This document shows, in pieces, positions 41,812 to 64,000 of a stretch of DNA of 64,000 bases (within the stretch, counting starts at the first letter, position 1; each line of letters starts with the position of its first letter). The notes beneath the pieces are model-generated. The model did no database searches and was not told the origin of the DNA. It saw nothing but the letters and a program-made list of their open reading frames with translations. The stretch is taken from positions 932-64,931 of the forward strand of contig CAKPHD010000001.1 in NCBI GenBank assembly GCA_934155625.1, given 5' to 3'. Origin of the DNA: an uncultured Clostridia bacterium. GTDB lineage: Bacteria; Bacillota; Clostridia; TANB77; CAG-508. The position numbers and the translations under genes were made by a program.

Positions 41812-43089
41812 TTAATTATTATCAGTACCAGCTTTGCTTAGTCCTACGTTAATTGTCATACCTCCACCAAGTGAAGCGTAGTTAATACAGTCAACGTCTT
41901 GTCCTTCTAGCCATACATACATTCTCATTTTTACATATTTACCAGGTGCTATAGAGAAATTAGAAGTACCATCTTTAGCACTTTTTAAATCAGTTACATT
42001 TTCAACTCCTGCATTAGTTGTTTGAACTGTATTTTGTTTTGTTAATCCATTTACAGTTGTTGTTGCTGATTTACAATCATAAATATCTTTGATACTTCCT
42101 ACTAAATCAGTTCTTCCATCTGTATCTTTTAGTTCTTTTGCAGTAAGTGATTTTGATGTTAAAGCATATGTTGGTAATGCTGTATCAGCAGCAAATTTTC
42201 CATTTGTAATTCCTGTTGGAGCTGTATTTCCTGTTGCAGCATCAAATGATAATCTGTTATTATTTGTTACTATGTAATCAACGTGTGCAGCATATTTTGT
42301 TACAGTTTGCTCTGTTTTTTCTTCTGCACCACTAGCATTTGGCTCCCATATAGTAGCATCTGTTATGTTCTTTCCTGATACTGCATTTAAAATTGCTTGT
42401 TGGCTTGAATCTGTAGCACCAACATCTACTGCTGAAGTATCATCAAATAATGCAAAAGCTACTCTGAATGAGTTTTGAACACCTGTTGATTCTTTTGATT
42501 TTGTTTTTAAATCAATACTTGAATTGGGTTCTAGTCTAAGATTGTCTCTAGTTCCTGCTGTAATAGCTGATGCAGCTGTAGAGTTCATTAAGAATAAATC
42601 AATAGCGAAATATCCTTTATCATTTATTGTTATATCTGCATCTGTAGCAATATTCTTAATACCAGTTAATTTTATACCTGATGTGTTTGTTCCTCTGTAC
42701 ATATTAAAGTCTTGTAATCCTATACCTTCTGTCTCTTGTGCTGTTGTTGAAACTGGTAATAATTCACTTGGAACTGCATTTTCACGTCCAGCATATGGTT
42801 TCTTTAAAGATAATTTGTCAGCATCTTGTTTTCCAACATTTTCTGTTGCAAAATATGATTCCATTCCTGTGTCTGACAAATCAATTTCGTTTGCCCAGTT
42901 CTTTCCGTCTAATGATACTTGTAGACCTTCTGCTACATTTACTTTACCATCTAGTCCACTTAATGTTACGTTTTTCTGCGTAGAGAACCACGCATATGTT
43001 GATACTATCAATAAGATAGCTGTGAATGCTACTAATAAAATTAGAGCATTTAATCTTTTTCTTGAGTCTTTTTGATTTTTTTCTCTCAT
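41812..43089 (-). CDS. TasA/camelysin-superfamily secreted protein with SipW-cognate signal peptide (STYAWFS), 425 aa
   Basis: N-terminal TM followed by the AWF motif. The C-terminal strand YVWLEGQD resembles TasA FEATQWNG. Confidence 0.65.
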   Translation of the reverse strand: MREKNQKDSRKRLNALILLVAFTAILLIVSTYAWFSTQKNVTLSGLDGKVNVAEGLQVSLDGKNWANEIDLSDTGMESYFATENVGKQDADKLSLKKPYAGRENAVPSELLPVSTTAQETEGIGLQDFNMYRGTNTSGIKLTGIKNIATDADITINDKGYFAIDLFLMNSTAASAITAGTRDNLRLEPNSSIDLKTKSKESTGVQNSFRVAFALFDDTSAVDVGATDSSQQAILNAVSGKNITDATIWEPNASGAEEKTEQTVTKYAAHVDYIVTNNNRLSFDAATGNTAPTGITNGKFAADTALPTYALTSKSLTAKELKDTDGRTDLVGSIKDIYDCKSATTTVNGLTKQNTVQTTNAGVENVTDLKSAKDGTSNFSIAPGKYVKMRMYVWLEGQDVDCINYASLGGGMTINVGLSKAGTDNN

Positions 43090-43182
43090 TTTTTTCTTCC
43101 TTCCTTTTCTTTTATTTTCTTTATATTTGTAAATTTTATAAACATATTTAATCTTTCGTGCCTATTCTAATTGCACATAATT

Positions 43183-63200: not shown

Positions 63201-64000
63201 CATCAGTTCCATCTCTTAAAATTTTAATATTTGATGATTCTAGATTACTCTTTGTTAAATCTAAGAATTTATCTTGACCTTTAACATTAAAACTAATTTT
63301 TCCATCAGATTCGAATTGAGAAGTATCTGTACTCATATATTTCCAAACTGGTTTTTTATTGTCTAAATCTACTAATATGTCTGTTGCATCATTTGTATGT
63401 CCGTCTAAGTCTCCAATCTTTTCAGCTGGAATACTAATTTTAAGTTGCTTAAATTCTTCTTCAAATTCATCTAATCTAACAACAAAATCATATCCATATT
63501 GTGTTTTAACAGGTGTTACTGTAATTGGTAAATCTGTTCTTTGTACATATTGTCCATTTCCATTTAGCTCGTAAATAGTAATATCATTTGCTGTTAACTT
63601 AGTATTAAAATCATAGTATCTATCAGTACCAGAAATTGTTACTGTTGCATATCTCTTAGCATAACTTATAAATTTCTCTTTATAGAATAATTTTGGTTTA
63701 ATAAAGTCTACTCTTATATAGTTATTTGCGTCATCACCATTGTCATTATCAACTATTATTTTTGTTTCAATGTTCGTATTTCCTGATGTATCTTTTACTT
63801 TTCCTGCTCCAATTACAAATTCTATTTTACCACTATGTCTTCTGAATATTTCGTTTTCTAGATTTTTATTAGCTTCGAAGTTAGACAATGTTAATGTATA
63901 TCTAATTCCATTTCCAGAACCATCTGTGATATCAGCTTTTGTTAATTTTTTAGTTATAGTATCTGTTACATCATAATCATCAACAAGTATTTGTTGTATA
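57232..64000 (-). CDS. Giant secreted beta-helix repeat protein (longer than 2250 aa; N-terminus beyond the window edge) with about 35 degenerate roughly 20-aa Gly-rich repeats (xxYGG[SG]... Pmp/POMP-like). No LPXTG or SLH anchor is visible.
   Basis: The ORF is open to position 64000. Repeats such as NIYGGS, VYGGG and IFGGS recur with about 20-aa periodicity. Confidence 0.8.
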   Translation of the reverse strand, partial: IQQILVDDYDVTDTITKKLTKADITDGSGNGIRYTLTLSNFEANKNLENEIFRRHSGKIEFVIGAGKVKDTSGNTNIETKIIVDNDNGDDANNYIRVDFIKPKLFYKEKFISYAKRYATVTISGTDRYYDFNTKLTANDITIYELNGNGQYVQRTDLPITVTPVKTQYGYDFVVRLDEFEEEFKQLKISIPAEKIGDLDGHTNDATDILVDLDNKKPVWKYMSTDTSQFESDGKISFNVKGQDKFLDLTKSNLESSNIKILRDGTDVTNADNIKVDYLSSDETEISKSYKIDVSGLTEIGTYSLVLEKETLVDEFNNKSATTTISFSKSAISSNTDNYTNVTYHATPDFEQTHQAYVHELMSVNTTGTNAESTTYRASSIGEIYNNGNNTLFAEPFKYEGGKQSAYSFKGWAVANEKGFSADNAKVYGLYEDIPNTVTHLNAVWQEATVIFVSKSGNNSNDGQSPTTPVKDLSTAYSKLNTNGTDATNIIVIMDKVEWNSSDTLTGNATITSLYAGVDYRNDGAELQISSNMNVSGDIIFDNIKLYSSSTTVSDGSDYLAAGNYSNVLVTNYGDVILGRGVSTPDGKYTFGAVVGGNYKEETTKNTIGLHTVIVEAGKYNNIIVGSSLNTPSTSRKYVTHQVIIGTMKESAISRNSKVTITGYLSMGELEDRCYPYNRNGSQDTTLGYTRYYAITKMYSGTFTGEHKFTKASEDASIYLRSINGFDDGKVQLDMFGGDVTGNIYGGARMATTKDKNDANQPDANILNFYGGQITGNVFGHGDNDASAGNSVITLQGCVGITGNVFGGSNATTVASGKVTGNTNITVNSAITIDGNIYGGSNGVINGITVNVNTGLITGNTNITLNVGLVKGDIFGGGYNCGATGRANINMNNGQVTGSIYGGAYQNQVQTETNVNIFGGTVNDVYGGTVLTTAFQLNADNSGQNTNIVIGNKDLNTTPTVNGSIYGSGKYDRVGTAEIRLVKCATTPTVYGGSDSAGMTTATNIYLNDMTASTIYGGSNTDGTMTTANIYLQSGTVTDVYGGGYGGTTTTANVNLEGTATVTSIFGGSNAQGSVQTSNVELKSGNLTNVYGGGNSASVGTANVTLDGITIGSIHGGSKNAGMTTNTNVVLNSGTVNSVYGAGYNIGATNTKVAQNGATVTNIYGGSEGNNSSETTNSTVNINSATAENVYGGNAGKGTVKYATINITGASTITRKLYGGGYQSDIGKSGSTSSAGSATINIAGGTINNDVVGGSENGTVYGTTNINIGKDAITDNTLTAGNISIGGNIYGAGDSTSTNYSTNTVQGETHITLDNGTDSPISFTGNIFGAGKGTNYASTGSKDNSTVMIKDFGSSSGSYKMTSIQRTGKVSIQNSYLELTGAQDEYNYYKKTSYTLNRITNGLALIDNSTLYTQKGFNMVGGFESLVTIDGSTTKATATIADGKVTKNVDNRLYTYEGVNLIFAKQEGELADMSNQDIWGNVSGMAFFGMYRTNRSTGTKEYDIYAPNYSGAATTNMFANGTYIEGRHKSKHDITVDGFYTNVVTGSSAVPQVIDVTDHGTYYDWIIGADIVNYNTSLIASTYSTYSMADLELNFKQFVDSVSYNETTFTVDRVSTNAFDTGTNLIDKLSVPTYSENANNTFALTMQTSKSGWMKSGTTNIYTNSDGSFDGDTVYRTDNSSDPGSIIFKLFNSVNVSETKDLGNINIVLTGKARTGEDASVGNTFKVVIAVNIQSLYEDLNKTNSASYIPRFTDSTNTELNYTTDSSVNMTYVLYKAGLGAQSNIYASGDYRVLSTSTPLPTGTNITVRDYGQGDNVNKVYHYQVASDTDYDATDNASGSTRYLYKLSKFVDMGGTSTSSKYSNDNSKYYHTDSSGSGYVLEKYDVSIDFSNSNLNTEKLAEQTYLELRNSSGARKYNNGDEDRKYNLYNKNAIMSESVVTDDGKTSYSVFEDLSIPFTFDGSVIEQNATDGSNIRDTKYYNKKIGMAVEIVHESGERVKAPELQNLKLIDTADSSVYSAGIDGVIRIPLADGLSSIHDKYTLTLSQSNVPAGQYKAKIYFFASNDGSYYNGEVLQEKEINITFINKNVSAAGLGIDSEQGNTIVNKETKLNLNGGKGIDYTVKVGEPSEETNIRVELYKRDATYTTAEDGTNSYNGIHYTQVDLKDYLQNIKGTEWKTPEEYTGQDLVTAEGSKEYIIMDKKSHSASDDGENIETIDFANAIKDGIITGEYKIVFKAYYNNTLVQTLKKTFIVTP

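What the first reader, a model, noticed from the sequence alone, without database searches (positions are those of the whole stretch)
41812..64000. Expanded TasA/SipW-type fibre locus: at least 7 TasA-like subunits, 5 SipW peptidase paralogues, a membrane AAA_5 ATPase and a giant beta-helix protein in one operon-like block
Over 22 kb every gene is on the minus strand with short or overlapping junctions.

- At least seven proteins have SipW-cognate-type signal peptides (an AWF, ARYF or AKYE motif after the hydrophobic segment) and TasA/camelysin-like C-terminal strands (W-x-[DEN]-G motifs).
- Five S26B SipW-type signal peptidases are present, and one has lost its His.
- The block also holds a membrane-anchored AAA_5 ATPase with two partners, a 539-aa coiled-coil protein, and a secreted beta-helix protein longer than 2250 aa.

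Known tapA-sipW-tasA (Bacillus) and sipW-bsaA (C. perfringens) loci have one peptidase and one or two subunits. This degree of paralogue expansion, with a dedicated ATPase and a mega-protein, suggests a heteropolymeric donor-strand fibre or surface-coat system with subunit-specific peptidases. I am not aware of one described in this form.

A terminator at 41770-41805 closes the unit. Dispersed repeats sit at its internal junctions (52969, 57149) and its 3' end (41727).
Basis: partly seen in the sequence, partly recalled or inferred. Interest (0 to 1): 0.9.

Follow-up and report, generated by a model that had tools for sequence, protein, structure and literature searches.

The report
SipW fibre locus with McrB GTPase
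An operon-like gene block in an uncultured, small-genome gut bacterium pairs several signal peptidases with secreted fibre-like subunits and wires them to a membrane-tethered relative of the McrBC restriction GTPase; this combination was named 'CoCoPALM' in 2024 but has never been characterised, and it probably builds a cell-surface fibre.

Summary
The block is minus-strand only. It holds five SipW-type (archaeal-type) signal peptidase paralogues, a family of paralogous secreted beta-sandwich proteins, a membrane-anchored P-loop NTPase with partners, and the C-terminal 2,255 aa of a giant beta-helix protein (7,227 aa in a related contig).

Corrections:
- The NTPase is a McrB-type GTPase domain behind a TM plus coiled-coil anchor. 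Its partner is a nuclease-less McrC-like (DUF2357) protein.
- The His-less peptidase belongs to a family that has lost both Ser and His across the lineage, so it is a pseudo-peptidase.
- No subunit reaches any TasA/camelysin or SipW-cognate model threshold. The link to the TasA superfamily rests on an identical cleavage-site register, weak top-ranked fold and sequence hits, and gene context.
- One subunit gene is frameshifted.
- An eighth subunit paralogue lies outside the interval.
- The dispersed repeats occur throughout the window.

A 9-gene core of the locus, in the same order, recurs in at least 80 species-level genomes of uncultured low-GC gut Bacillota. The window carries an expanded version.

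The McrB–signal-peptidase association matches 'CoCoPALM' (Bell et al., eLife 2024), which was named but not characterised. So this is not undescribed, but it is functionally unexplored.

The parts
57232..64000 (-). g18: C-terminal 2,255 aa of a giant secreted beta-helix-repeat protein; the gene continues beyond the window
   Evidence: Translation shows GG-x-N/YGG repeat arrays and no TM segment. The same gene is 7,227 aa with a DUF285 hit in L004. A g18-like giant ORF lies upstream of the cluster in at least 20 distant loci.
57140..57231 (.). REP-like GC-rich repeats in the g18/g17 intergenic region
   Evidence: GGGACCGGTTC and GGTACCGTTGG motifs at 57149-57209. The same family occurs elsewhere in the window.
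56262..57129 (-). g17: subunit-like gene (signal helix plus FGRY motif) split by a +1 frameshift near 56795 into ORFs 56791-57129 and 56262-56711
   Evidence: Both halves align colinearly with the intact 285-aa L014 orthologue. It is a single gene of about 305 aa in 67 other loci. hhalign g12~g17 gives 93%.
55619..56080 (-). g16: small single-TM protein, clade-specific
   Evidence: TM at 12-30. Found in only 5 of 80 loci.
54754..55581 (-). g15: SipW-like pseudo-peptidase with a K/T-rich C-terminal tail
   Evidence: NF046067 54.6 bits; TIGR02228 37.1 bits, below cut-off. His is replaced. Across the family the Ser column is S in only 7 of 72 and the His column is never H. Present in 67 of 80 loci.
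54112..54753 (-). g14: secreted beta-sandwich subunit (MYA|LYKD)
53604..54128 (-). g13: active-type SipW peptidase
   Evidence: TIGR02228 63.8 bits. Ser is conserved in 48 of 48 family members and His in 47 of 48.
53036..53620 (-). g12: secreted subunit (TLA|KYE)
   Evidence: hhalign g12~g14 gives 97.4% over 166 columns. Motif shown.
52953..53035 (.). REP-like repeats at the g12/g11 junction
   Evidence: Motif hits at 52979, 52994, 53015 and 53030.
51912..52952 (-). g11: conserved cytoplasmic partner of unknown fold
   Evidence: No TM. Present in 76 of 80 loci, always directly upstream of g10. No Pfam, NCBIfam or PDB hit.
50355..51908 (-). g10: membrane-tethered McrB-type GTPase (N-terminal conserved segment, TM 62-80, coiled-coil-like linker, AAA+ core about 200-380)
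   Evidence: The family profile hits E. coli McrB 6hz4 at E = 3.5e-6 over residues 203-380. Walker A is GISGTGKTS, Walker B is ILDEMNLA, and INNDD aligns to McrB NTAD. TM shown. Identity is 57-97% across 80 genomes.
49201..50325 (-). g9: McrC-like activator (DUF2357) with a helical C-terminal half and no detectable nuclease
   Evidence: PF09823 scores 31.3 bits against a cut-off of 23.3. All 44 family members hit DUF2357 and none hits a nuclease family. The C-terminal half matches only helical designs.
48608..49198 (-). g8: active-type SipW peptidase (core member)
   Evidence: TIGR02228 84.8 bits. Ser, His and Asp are conserved in 72 of 73 family members. Present in 79 of 80 loci.
47986..48624 (-). 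g7: secreted subunit (TYA|RYFE), clade-specific duplicate of g14
   Evidence: blastp gives 26% identity over the full length, E = 9e-13. hhalign gives 99.4%.
47831..47977 (-). 48-aa helical small ORF overlapping the g6 start by 4 nt
   Evidence: Listed. A 45-aa gene is called at this position in L001, L002 and L004-L007.
46215..47834 (-). g6: 539-aa K/E-rich cytoplasmic protein (coiled coil presumed, not formally tested)
   Evidence: No TM; E+K fraction 0.27. No family hit. A protein of about 500 aa is assigned to g6 in 28 of 80 loci, at the start or end of the cluster.
45585..46193 (-). g5: active-type SipW peptidase (extra copy)
   Evidence: TIGR02228 108.7 bits. Ser and His are present.
44847..45569 (-). 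g4: active-type SipW peptidase with a long acidic C-terminal tail
   Evidence: TIGR02228 64.0 bits. 43% identical to g8. Ser, His and Asp are conserved.
44114..44812 (-). g3: core secreted subunit (TYA|WFN)
   Evidence: The family of 56 sequences (A5) has the consensus NTFAWF...YPGM...N.GE...KI.A.Q. Its top PDB sequence hits are AbpX at E = 0.14. hhalign g14~g3 gives 96.8% over 177 columns.
43183..43968 (-). g2: single-TM protein with an ectodomain sharing the C-terminal W-x-EG-x-D-x-x-C strand with g1; candidate membrane anchor or nucleator
   Evidence: TM at 44-62 and no cleavage motif. hhalign g1~g2 gives 91.5% at the C-terminus. It is the second most conserved gene, at 40-91% identity.
41812..43089 (-). 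g1: largest, hypervariable secreted subunit (TYA|WFST)
41771..41800 (-). Terminator-like hairpin plus T7 closing the unit
   Evidence: The sequence aaaaaccgacaaatttatttgccggttttttt lies directly after the g1 stop codon. A 12/12 sigma-70-like promoter for the next gene sits at 41671-41643.
30287..31927 (-). Outlying eighth subunit paralogue (546 aa): a g3-type domain plus a C-terminal domain of about 320 aa of unknown family
   Evidence: The TTFAWF motif is present. hhalign to the g3 family gives 99.8%, E = 2.6e-28, over residues 4-224. A 560-aa homologue abuts the locus in L008 and L009.

Best explanation
The locus encodes a surface fibre or matrix apparatus of the SipW/TasA type that has recruited a domesticated McrBC module.

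Proposed sequence of events:

1. The subunits g1, g3, g7, g12, g14 and g17, plus the outlying 546-aa paralogue, are exported. Each stays held in the membrane by its N-terminal helix.
2. The four catalytically intact SipW paralogues, each encoded directly upstream of a subunit gene, cut after T-[YF]-A.
3. Cutting frees an N-terminal strand that begins x-[FY]. This strand inserts into the beta-sandwich of a neighbouring subunit (donor-strand complementation), giving a heteropolymer.
4. g2 is uncleaved and shares g1's C-terminal strand. It is the candidate membrane anchor or nucleator.
5. g15 is a signal-peptidase-like protein without catalytic residues. It is the candidate non-cleaving holdase or assembly factor, as SipA is for S. 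pyogenes pili.
6. On the cytoplasmic face, the membrane-tethered McrB-type GTPase g10, its nuclease-less McrC-like activator g9, g11 and the long K/E-rich g6 gate or power assembly, or display of the giant beta-helix protein g18.

Status of each claim:

- Shown: gene content, paralogy, catalytic-residue status, McrB/McrC homology, and conservation of the interleaved order.
- Inferred: cleavage at the motif, polymerisation by donor strand, the roles of g2 and g15, and any coupling of GTP hydrolysis to assembly.
For: **Peptidases**
- Four are above the TIGR02228 cut-off with Ser, His and Asp conserved. One is a lineage-wide dead copy.

**Subunits are one superfamily**
- hhalign gives g14~g7 99.4%, g12~g14 97.4%, g14~g3 96.8%, g1~g14 94.3% (N-terminal part), g12~g17 93.3% and g1~g2 91.5%.

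**Cleavage motif**
- The motif has the same register as TasA (GTWA|AFND). The mature start of TasA was verified against 8aur.
- Mature N-termini have an aromatic at position 2: LYKD, RYFE, KYET, WFST and WFNI. g14 and g7 also have an acid at position 4. This is the pattern reported for the TasA superfamily.

**g1 model**
- Residues 31-44 are nearly invariant in the family yet have pLDDT below 50, as expected for an intermolecular strand.

**Other subunit evidence**
- The g3-family profile's top PDB hits are AbpX.

**GTPase module**
- g10 is McrB-like. g9 hits DUF2357 in 44 of 44 family members and has no detectable nuclease.

**Conservation**
- The order g15-g17-g11-g10-g9-g8-g3-g2-g1 is kept in dozens of species-level genomes, and g10 is the most conserved gene.
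- g1 is hypervariable, as expected of an exposed subunit.

**Not on mobile elements**
- No relative was found in IMG/VR. Plasmids carry only GTPase-core relatives at 36% identity or less, none covering the N-terminal anchor.

**Literature**
- Bell et al. independently linked this GTPase clade to signal-peptidase 'pilus assembly' genes.
Against: - No subunit or family member passes Peptidase_M73, TIGR04088 or TIGR04090. Single members hit at E = 0.02-0.08.
- hhalign to TasA is insignificant, with a best probability of 5%.
- TasA, BsaA and the archaeal Abp fibres need no NTPase, so the role of the GTPase has no precedent.
- No oligomer model, expression data or imaging is available.
- One subunit gene (g17) is frameshifted in this clade.
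- McrBC ancestry and a PADLOC candidate-defence hit on the GTPase core (PDC-M26A, 2.5e-35) keep a defence role open.
Confidence: 0.5

Rival explanations
1. An envelope-display or coat apparatus rather than a long fibre. The small beta-sandwich proteins form a short stalk, sheath or 2-D layer that anchors and presents the giant beta-helix protein g18 (and the 546-aa lectin-like paralogue) on a cell with a reduced envelope. The GTPase module regulates this display.
For: - A g18-like giant protein directly precedes the cluster in the window and in at least 20 distant loci.
- g18's last 2,255 aa carry no membrane anchor or LPXTG-like motif, so it needs some attachment partner.
- TasA-superfamily relatives also build tubes and lattices: CanX cannulae, DUF1102 tubes and the AbpX lattice.
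- Genomes of the lineage are small, at 1.26-1.65 Mb.
Against: - No sequence relationship was found between the g18 C-terminus and the subunits.
- Minimal loci retrieved with 10-kb flanks often show no g18 hit, although many are truncated.
- The N-terminus and signal of g18 were not seen.
Confidence: 0.2
2. An anti-phage or conflict system derived from McrBC, a relative of CoCoNuT. The GTPase/McrC-like pair senses invasion, and the membrane peptidases and secreted proteins are effectors or a modified phage receptor.
For: - McrB and DUF2357 homology.
- A PADLOC candidate system (PDC-M26A) hits the GTPase core at 2.5e-35.
- Relatives of the GTPase core sit on plasmids and next to DUF2357 genes without peptidases.
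- Bell et al. place the clade among CoCoNuT-like systems.
Against: - No nuclease or other recognisable effector domain was detected in g9 or its 44 relatives.
- There is no DNA- or RNA-binding N-terminal domain; a membrane anchor takes its place.
- g10 is the most conserved gene and the gene order is fixed over 80 species-level genomes, unlike patchy defence islands.
- It is absent from viral contigs.
- The PADLOC match covers only residues 202-321.
Confidence: 0.15
3. Two unrelated units that merely lie side by side: a SipW/subunit cluster and a McrBC-like pair.
For: Larger gaps with REP-like repeats flank the g11-g10-g9 block on one side (g12/g11, 83 nt), and internal promoters cannot be excluded.
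Against: - g11-g10-g9 is embedded between peptidase/subunit cassettes in all 80 loci examined.
- Gaps of 2-3 nt join it to g8 and g11.
- The association was found independently by Bell et al..
Confidence: 0.03

Closest known systems
[quoted passage not shown]
   Same: - A McrB-type GTPase preceded by a TM plus coiled-coil segment.
- A McrC (DUF2357) homologue with a helical extension.
- Tight association with signal-peptidase-family genes.
   Different: The published description is one paragraph with no subunit analysis. The following are not in the text available to me:
- the TasA-like cleavage motif of the subunits;
- the dead-peptidase family;
- the g2 anchor;
- the giant beta-helix neighbour;
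- the expansion to five peptidases.

Placement in their NxD GTPase clade could not be tested. g10 has N-N-D-D, which fits both NxD and NxxD.
tapA-sipW-tasA of Bacillus subtilis (TasA fibres, PDB 8aur)
   Same: - A dedicated archaeal-type SPase next to its substrates.
- A cleavage register of T-aromatic-A|x-aromatic.
- An accessory membrane-proximal protein (TapA; g2 here).
- A beta-sandwich subunit.
   Different: - No Peptidase_M73 or TIGR04088 membership.
- 6-8 subunit paralogues and 5 peptidase-like genes here, against 1-2 subunits and 1 peptidase there.
- A cytoplasmic GTPase module and a pseudo-peptidase are present here; TasA needs neither.
sipW-bsaA locus of Clostridium perfringens (Obana et al. 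2020, PMC7395162)
   Same: A SipW-dependent matrix protein operon in a low-GC Bacillota.
   Different: Only 1 of 56 g3-family members touches the BsaA model TIGR04090, at E = 0.019. BsaA loci have no McrBC-like module.
Archaeal donor-strand filaments (Saci_0406 threads 7pnb, Pyrobaculum bundling pili 7ueg, P. abyssi AbpX 9sj2 and CanX 9h8b)
   Same: - These are the best structural hits for g1 and the best sequence hits for the g3 family.
- They share the YPG...N-G motif region, an N-terminal strand with an aromatic at position 2, and a neighbouring SPase I.
   Different: - The AbpX-type SPase has ten TM helices, whereas these have two.
- No NTPase partner is reported for them.
McrBC type IV restriction enzyme (E. 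coli, 6hz4/6ut6)
   Same: An AAA+ GTPase core with Walker A, Walker B and the N-x-x-D region, partnered by a DUF2357 protein encoded directly downstream.
   Different: - The DNA-binding N-terminal domain is replaced by a membrane anchor.
- The partner has no detectable PD-(D/E)xK nuclease.
SipA/LepA of Streptococcus pyogenes pilus islands (Young et al. 2014, PMC4049620)
   Same: A signal-peptidase-like protein described as essential for pilus polymerisation is a precedent for g15 acting as an assembly factor rather than an enzyme.
   Different: SipA belongs to sortase-dependent pili. This locus has no sortase hit and no LPXTG-like motif. g15 is of the SipW/Sec11 type with two TM segments.

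Membership tests
TasA/camelysin (Pfam PF12389 Peptidase_M73) | Significant match to the family HMM | tested here: not met
   No hit for any locus protein at E <= 0.1. 1 of 56 g3-family members hits at E = 0.022. None of 82 g2/g17/g12/g14/g7 family members hits.
SipW-cognate substrates (NCBIfam TIGR04088 / TIGR04090) | Score above the curated cut-off on the signal-peptide or BsaA model | tested here: not met
   g1 scores 13.9 bits against a cut-off of 19. 1 of 56 g3-family members hits each model, at E = 0.08 and 0.019.
TasA superfamily (functional definition: SPase-I-processed, donor-strand fibres) | Cleavage-site register T-aromatic-A | x-aromatic, with an aromatic at mature position 2 | tested here: met
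   Family consensus sequences are STYAWF (g1), NTFAWF (g3), TYALF (g14), T.ARY (g12), TYARYF (g7) and TFGRY (g17). The mature start of TasA is AFND after GTWA, verified on 8aur. The pattern is described.
TasA superfamily | Jelly-roll / beta-sandwich fold similar to solved fibre subunits | tested here: inconclusive
   [not shown]
TasA superfamily | Polymerisation by N-terminal donor-strand complementation | not testable with these tools
   Only single-chain prediction is available. Indirect support: g1 residues 31-44 are nearly invariant but have pLDDT below 50.
SipW / archaeal-type signal peptidase I (TIGR02228) | Score above the 51.85-bit cut-off, plus catalytic Ser, His and Asp | tested here: met
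   g5 108.7, g8 84.8, g4 64.0 and g13 63.8 bits. Residues are present and conserved in the families. Not met for g15: 37.1 bits, His absent, and Ser conserved in only 7 of 72 family members.
McrB GTPase | AAA+ core with Walker A, Walker B and the NxxD/NxD region, homologous to McrB | tested here: met
   Profile A4 against 6hz4 gives E = 3.5e-6 over residues 203-380. GISGTGKTS, ILDEMNLA and INNDD align to the McrB motifs. Pfam AAA_5 itself did not hit.
McrB GTPase | N-terminal nucleic-acid-binding specificity domain | tested here: not met
   Residues 1-190 are a conserved amphipathic segment, a TM (62-80) and a coiled-coil-like linker. The only hits are sub-threshold FtsL/FtsL_2 matches.
McrC | DUF2357 N-terminal domain | tested here: met
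   31.3 bits against a cut-off of 23.3. All 44 family members hit, with a best E-value of 5.3e-18.
McrC | C-terminal PD-(D/E)xK nuclease | tested here: not met
   No nuclease family hit in any of 44 members. The profile against the PDB finds only a designed helical protein.
CoCoPALM (Bell et al. 2024) | McrB GTPase fused to an FtsB-like TM plus coiled-coil domain | tested here: inconclusive
   The TM is clear, as is the conserved 'ILAMKVSQLGLKPGE'-type linker. FtsL_2/FtsL hits reach only E = 0.006-0.015, in 4 of 8 members.
CoCoPALM (Bell et al. 2024) | Association with signal-peptidase-family genes | tested here: met
   g8 lies 2 nt downstream of g9. Peptidase-like genes are present in all 80 loci examined.
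CoCoPALM (Bell et al. 2024) | Placement in the NxD clade of the authors' GTPase tree | not testable with these tools
   The motif N358-N-D-D361 is invariant and compatible with either NxD or NxxD. No tree or accession list is available.
Sortase-dependent Gram-positive pili | Sortase gene and LPXTG sorting signals | tested here: not met
   No sortase family hit. No [LIN]PX[TSA]G motif in any locus protein.

The most novel reading that the evidence does not exclude
A previously uncharacterised kind of extracellular-filament machine. TasA-superfamily donor-strand subunits would be released by dedicated SipW paralogues. A catalytically dead SipW would handle them. A membrane-tethered, nuclease-free McrBC-type GTPase complex would power or gate their assembly. 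That would make a restriction enzyme motor repurposed for building a surface organelle. The apparatus would be a near-universal trait of an uncultured, reduced-genome gut lineage and would underlie attachment of its giant adhesin to hosts or partner cells.
Probability: 0.3. Interest if true: 0.85.

Novelty: new variant of a known kind. Interest (0 to 1): 0.62.

Why it matters
- SipW/TasA-type fibres are thought to self-assemble outside the cell without an energy source. McrBC is the textbook GTP-driven restriction enzyme. A conserved, interleaved operon joining the two implies one of two things: an NTP-dependent step in donor-strand fibre biogenesis, or a conflict system wired to a surface organelle. 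Either would be new biology.
- The locus is among the best-conserved multi-gene features I saw in a widespread but uncultured group of small-genome human and ruminant gut Bacillota. Its hypervariable terminal subunit and 7,000-aa adhesin-like neighbour are likely determinants of how these organisms attach, and of how they are seen by phages and by host immunity.
- The system gives clean, testable parts: four active peptidases, one dead peptidase, six to eight substrates, and a soluble GTPase/activator pair.

Tried and rejected
- **Direct family assignment of the subunits.** I tried Pfam, NCBIfam, PDB sequence search with three family profiles, Foldseek and hhalign to TasA. All were below threshold.
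- **g18 C-terminus as a subunit-like acceptor domain.** No relationship by hhalign.
- **g11 as a degenerate EAL domain.** Only 1 of 40 members hits, at E = 0.035, and there is no PDB hit. Rejected.
- **C-terminal domain of the 546-aa paralogue as FGE-sulfatase-like.** This is a motif resemblance from memory only. There is no PDB or Pfam support.
- **Conserved flanking synteny as evidence of vertical descent.** RNase J, GltX or UvrA neighbours were found in only 4 of 80 loci within the 10-kb flanks, so this was uninformative.
- **Promoter scan.** Uninformative in 28% GC DNA: 114 sites found against 110 expected.
- **Rfam.** No hit in the window.
- **Programmed frameshift in g17.** The CUA-CGG site offers no obvious slippery re-pairing, so I treat it as a fixed frameshift of unknown consequence.
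- **Prophage or plasmid origin.** No viral relatives, and only GTPase-core relatives on plasmids.
- **Taxonomic placement.** Searches for RF39 or CAG-567 literature gave nothing usable. Lineage naming is left open.
- **Supplementary files of Bell et al.** They hold no CoCoPALM text.

Full report
**What is there**

Between 41812 and the window end, all supported genes lie on the minus strand. I number them g1 (41812-43089) to g18 (57232 to beyond 64000).

- Junctions inside sub-blocks are overlaps of 4-17 nt or gaps of 37 nt or less. Five larger gaps of 79-181 nt remain.
- A hairpin plus T7 follows the g1 stop codon. A perfect sigma-70-like promoter for the next gene lies just beyond it.
- Downstream neighbours are housekeeping genes (RNase J, GltX, SerS, UvrA), so this is chromosomal DNA.
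- Identical or near-identical copies occur in many human-gut metagenome contigs.
- Overall GC is about 28%.

**Peptidases**

- g4, g5, g8 and g13 exceed the curated cut-off of the archaeal-type signal peptidase I model TIGR02228 (64.0, 108.7, 84.8 and 63.8 bits against 51.85). g15 does not (37.1 bits; NF046067 54.6).
- All five have an N-terminal and a C-terminal hydrophobic segment.
- In the window, Ser and Asp align in all five, and His is missing only in g15.
- Across orthologues from 80 genomes, the g8, g13 and g4 families keep Ser and His almost without exception. The g15 family has Ser in 7 of 72 members and never His.
- So g15 is not a recent casualty. It is a conserved pseudo-peptidase.
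- A signal-peptidase-like protein essential for pilus polymerisation is known from S. pyogenes (SipA, PMC4049620). It offers a functional analogy, not homology of context.

**Subunits**

- g1, g3, g7, g12, g14 and g17 begin with a basic stretch and one hydrophobic helix. The helix ends in a conserved T-[YFL]-[AG] followed by x-[FY].
- The TasA precursor reads GTWA|AFND. I verified that the solved fibre chain 8aur starts at AFND, so the register is the same.
[quoted passage not shown] Mature g14 (LYKD) and g7 (RYFE) have both features. g1, g3 and g12 have the aromatic.
- Family-profile comparisons show the subunits are paralogues: g14~g7 99.4%, g12~g14 97.4%, g14~g3 96.8%, g1~g14 94.3% (N-terminal part) and g12~g17 93.3%. 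g2 shares only g1's C-terminal W-x-EG-x-D-x-x-C strand (91.5%).
- g2 has a cytoplasmic N-terminus, one TM segment and no cleavage motif.

**Is it TasA?**

By every profile test, no.

- There is no Peptidase_M73 hit for any window protein, for 55 of 56 g3-family members, or for 82 members of the other families.
- TIGR04088 reaches 13.9 bits for g1 (cut-off 19) and touches 1 of 56 g3-family members.
- hhalign to TasA is insignificant. The short alignments it does give are colinear (YPGM..N.GE against KPGD..ENNGS, and the last strand ..KI.A.Q against ..FSFEATQ).

Structure prediction gives weak but coherent hints.

- The g1 model (pLDDT 82.4, pTM 0.83) has no Foldseek match.
- The g3-family profile's best PDB sequence hits are the two AbpX entries (E = 0.14).

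I therefore treat the subunits as a new family. They are probably a distant branch of the TasA/Abp donor-strand superfamily. They are not members of the TasA/camelysin family.

**The NTPase module**

- Pfam AAA_5 does not hit g10. A profile of g10 orthologues matches the E. coli McrB GTPase domain (6hz4, E = 3.5e-6, residues 203-380), with Walker A, Walker B and the N-x-x-D region aligned.
- Residues 1-190 are a conserved amphipathic segment, a strong TM (62-80), basic residues and a heptad-like linker. FtsL-type models hit only below threshold.
- g9 carries DUF2357, the McrC N-terminal domain that activates McrB, in 44 of 44 orthologues. No nuclease family hits, and the C-terminal half is helical.
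- g11 is always directly upstream of g10 and has no detectable relatives.
- g6 is a long K/E-rich, TM-less protein.

**Conservation**

- The 80 best loci come from MAGs labelled uncultured Clostridia, Bacilli, Tenericutes, Mycoplasma or Erysipelotrichaceae. They include complete chromosomes of 1.26 and 1.55 Mb. A close g10 cluster sits on a 1.65-Mb contig.
- The recurring order is [giant protein][g6] g15 [g14 g13 g12] g17 g11 g10 g9 g8 g3 g2 g1. A 9-gene minimal form is g15-g17-g11-g10-g9-g8-g3-g2-g1.
- g10 is the most conserved gene (57-97%) and g2 is next. The secreted subunits fall to 22-48% identity.
- g1 is hypervariable even between close relatives: g10 97%, g2 91% and g1 42% in L010.
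- The window's clade is an expanded version. It has extra peptidases (g4, g5), a g14 duplicate (g7), g16, and g6 moved inside the cluster.

**Prior description**

- Bell et al. (eLife 2024) describe a large clade of CoCoNuT-like McrB GTPases. [quoted passage not shown]
- They name these systems CoCoPALM and defer analysis to a future paper. I found no follow-up and nothing in the held supplements.
- The window locus fits that description on every point I could test. Placement in the authors' tree could not be checked.

**Wider GTPase family**

- Against 1.84 billion representative proteins, g10 has 741 relatives at E <= 1e-30. Only about a dozen align over the N-terminal 150 residues; the rest have other, longer N-termini.
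- Two sampled relatives sit with a DUF2357 partner or with ABC-transporter genes, and no peptidase gene was seen in those short contigs.
- Plasmids carry only core relatives at 36% identity or less. Viral contigs carry none.
- A PADLOC candidate-defence profile hits the core only.

**Interpretation**

The best-supported reading is a SipW-processed fibre or matrix, probably assembled by donor-strand exchange, whose assembly or use is tied to a domesticated, nuclease-free, membrane-tethered McrBC-type GTPase complex.

- Shown: the parts, their homologies, the catalytic status of the peptidases, and the fixed interleaving.
- Inferred: cleavage at the motif, strand exchange, the anchor role of g2, the holdase role of g15, and any energetic coupling.

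The main rivals are:
- a coat or display apparatus for the giant protein;
- a conflict system that still works as a sensor;
- chance adjacency, which is effectively excluded.

**Verdict**

The system is real, conserved and mechanistically unexplained. Its defining association is already named in the literature, and the TasA label is a superfamily-level hypothesis, not a family assignment.

Noticed in passing
window 30287-31927 (-): A 546-aa ORF outside the finding is a further subunit paralogue. It has the signal motif TTFAWF, and residues 4-224 match the g3 family (hhalign 99.8%, E = 2.6e-28). It also carries a C-terminal domain of about 320 aa with no Pfam or PDB match. A 560-aa homologue abuts the locus in L008 and L009.
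   Followed up: partly
window 56711-56800 (g17): The g17 subunit gene is interrupted by a +1 frameshift at ...AAA GTA ACT CTA CGG TAT TAA. The split is shared by contigs L004-L007 and L010-L013. The gene is intact in L014 and in 67 more distant loci. It could be a pseudogene, a two-part gene or recoding; this is undecided.
   Followed up: partly
window 14874-14990, 15823-15900, 20116-20200, 32485-32500, 33229-33360, 35835-35856, 41725-41750, 52979-53035, 57149-57215: A REP-like GC-rich intergenic repeat family. The core motifs are GGGACCGGTTC and GGTACCGTTGG, often in 2-4 copies about 37 nt apart, in a 28% GC genome. It has no Rfam match.
   Followed up: partly
window 41812-43089 (g1), compared with L010, L014, L008, L066 and L077: g1 is far more divergent than its neighbours between close relatives (g10 97%, g2 91%, g1 42% in L010). 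It is duplicated or inverted in some genomes, which suggests diversifying selection or allele replacement of an exposed subunit.
   Followed up: partly
window 41059-41583 (-): A 174-aa ORF just downstream of the locus has five or more tandem 7-aa WEENDKR/WEENNKR repeats (21-nt period) and no family hit. It has its own perfect sigma-70-like promoter at 41671-41643.
   Followed up: no
window 47831-47977 (-): A 48-aa helical small ORF overlaps the g6 start codon by 4 nt. A 45-aa gene is called at the same place in six related contigs.
   Followed up: no
L092 (GCA_030537155.1, JAUNOH010000025.1) and L090: More distant membrane-anchored or long-N-terminus relatives of g10 sit in other contexts. One has a DUF2357 partner of 559 aa. 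Another has an ABC-transporter ATPase and large unknown proteins. No peptidase gene was seen in these short contigs. The GTPase clade is therefore used in several different membrane-associated systems.
   Followed up: partly
window 44847-45569 (g4) and 54754-55581 (g15): Two of the peptidase-like proteins carry long low-complexity C-terminal tails after the second TM. g4 has about 45 residues of almost pure D/E. g15 has about 100 residues of K/T/A-rich sequence. These are candidate cytoplasmic interaction handles.
   Followed up: no
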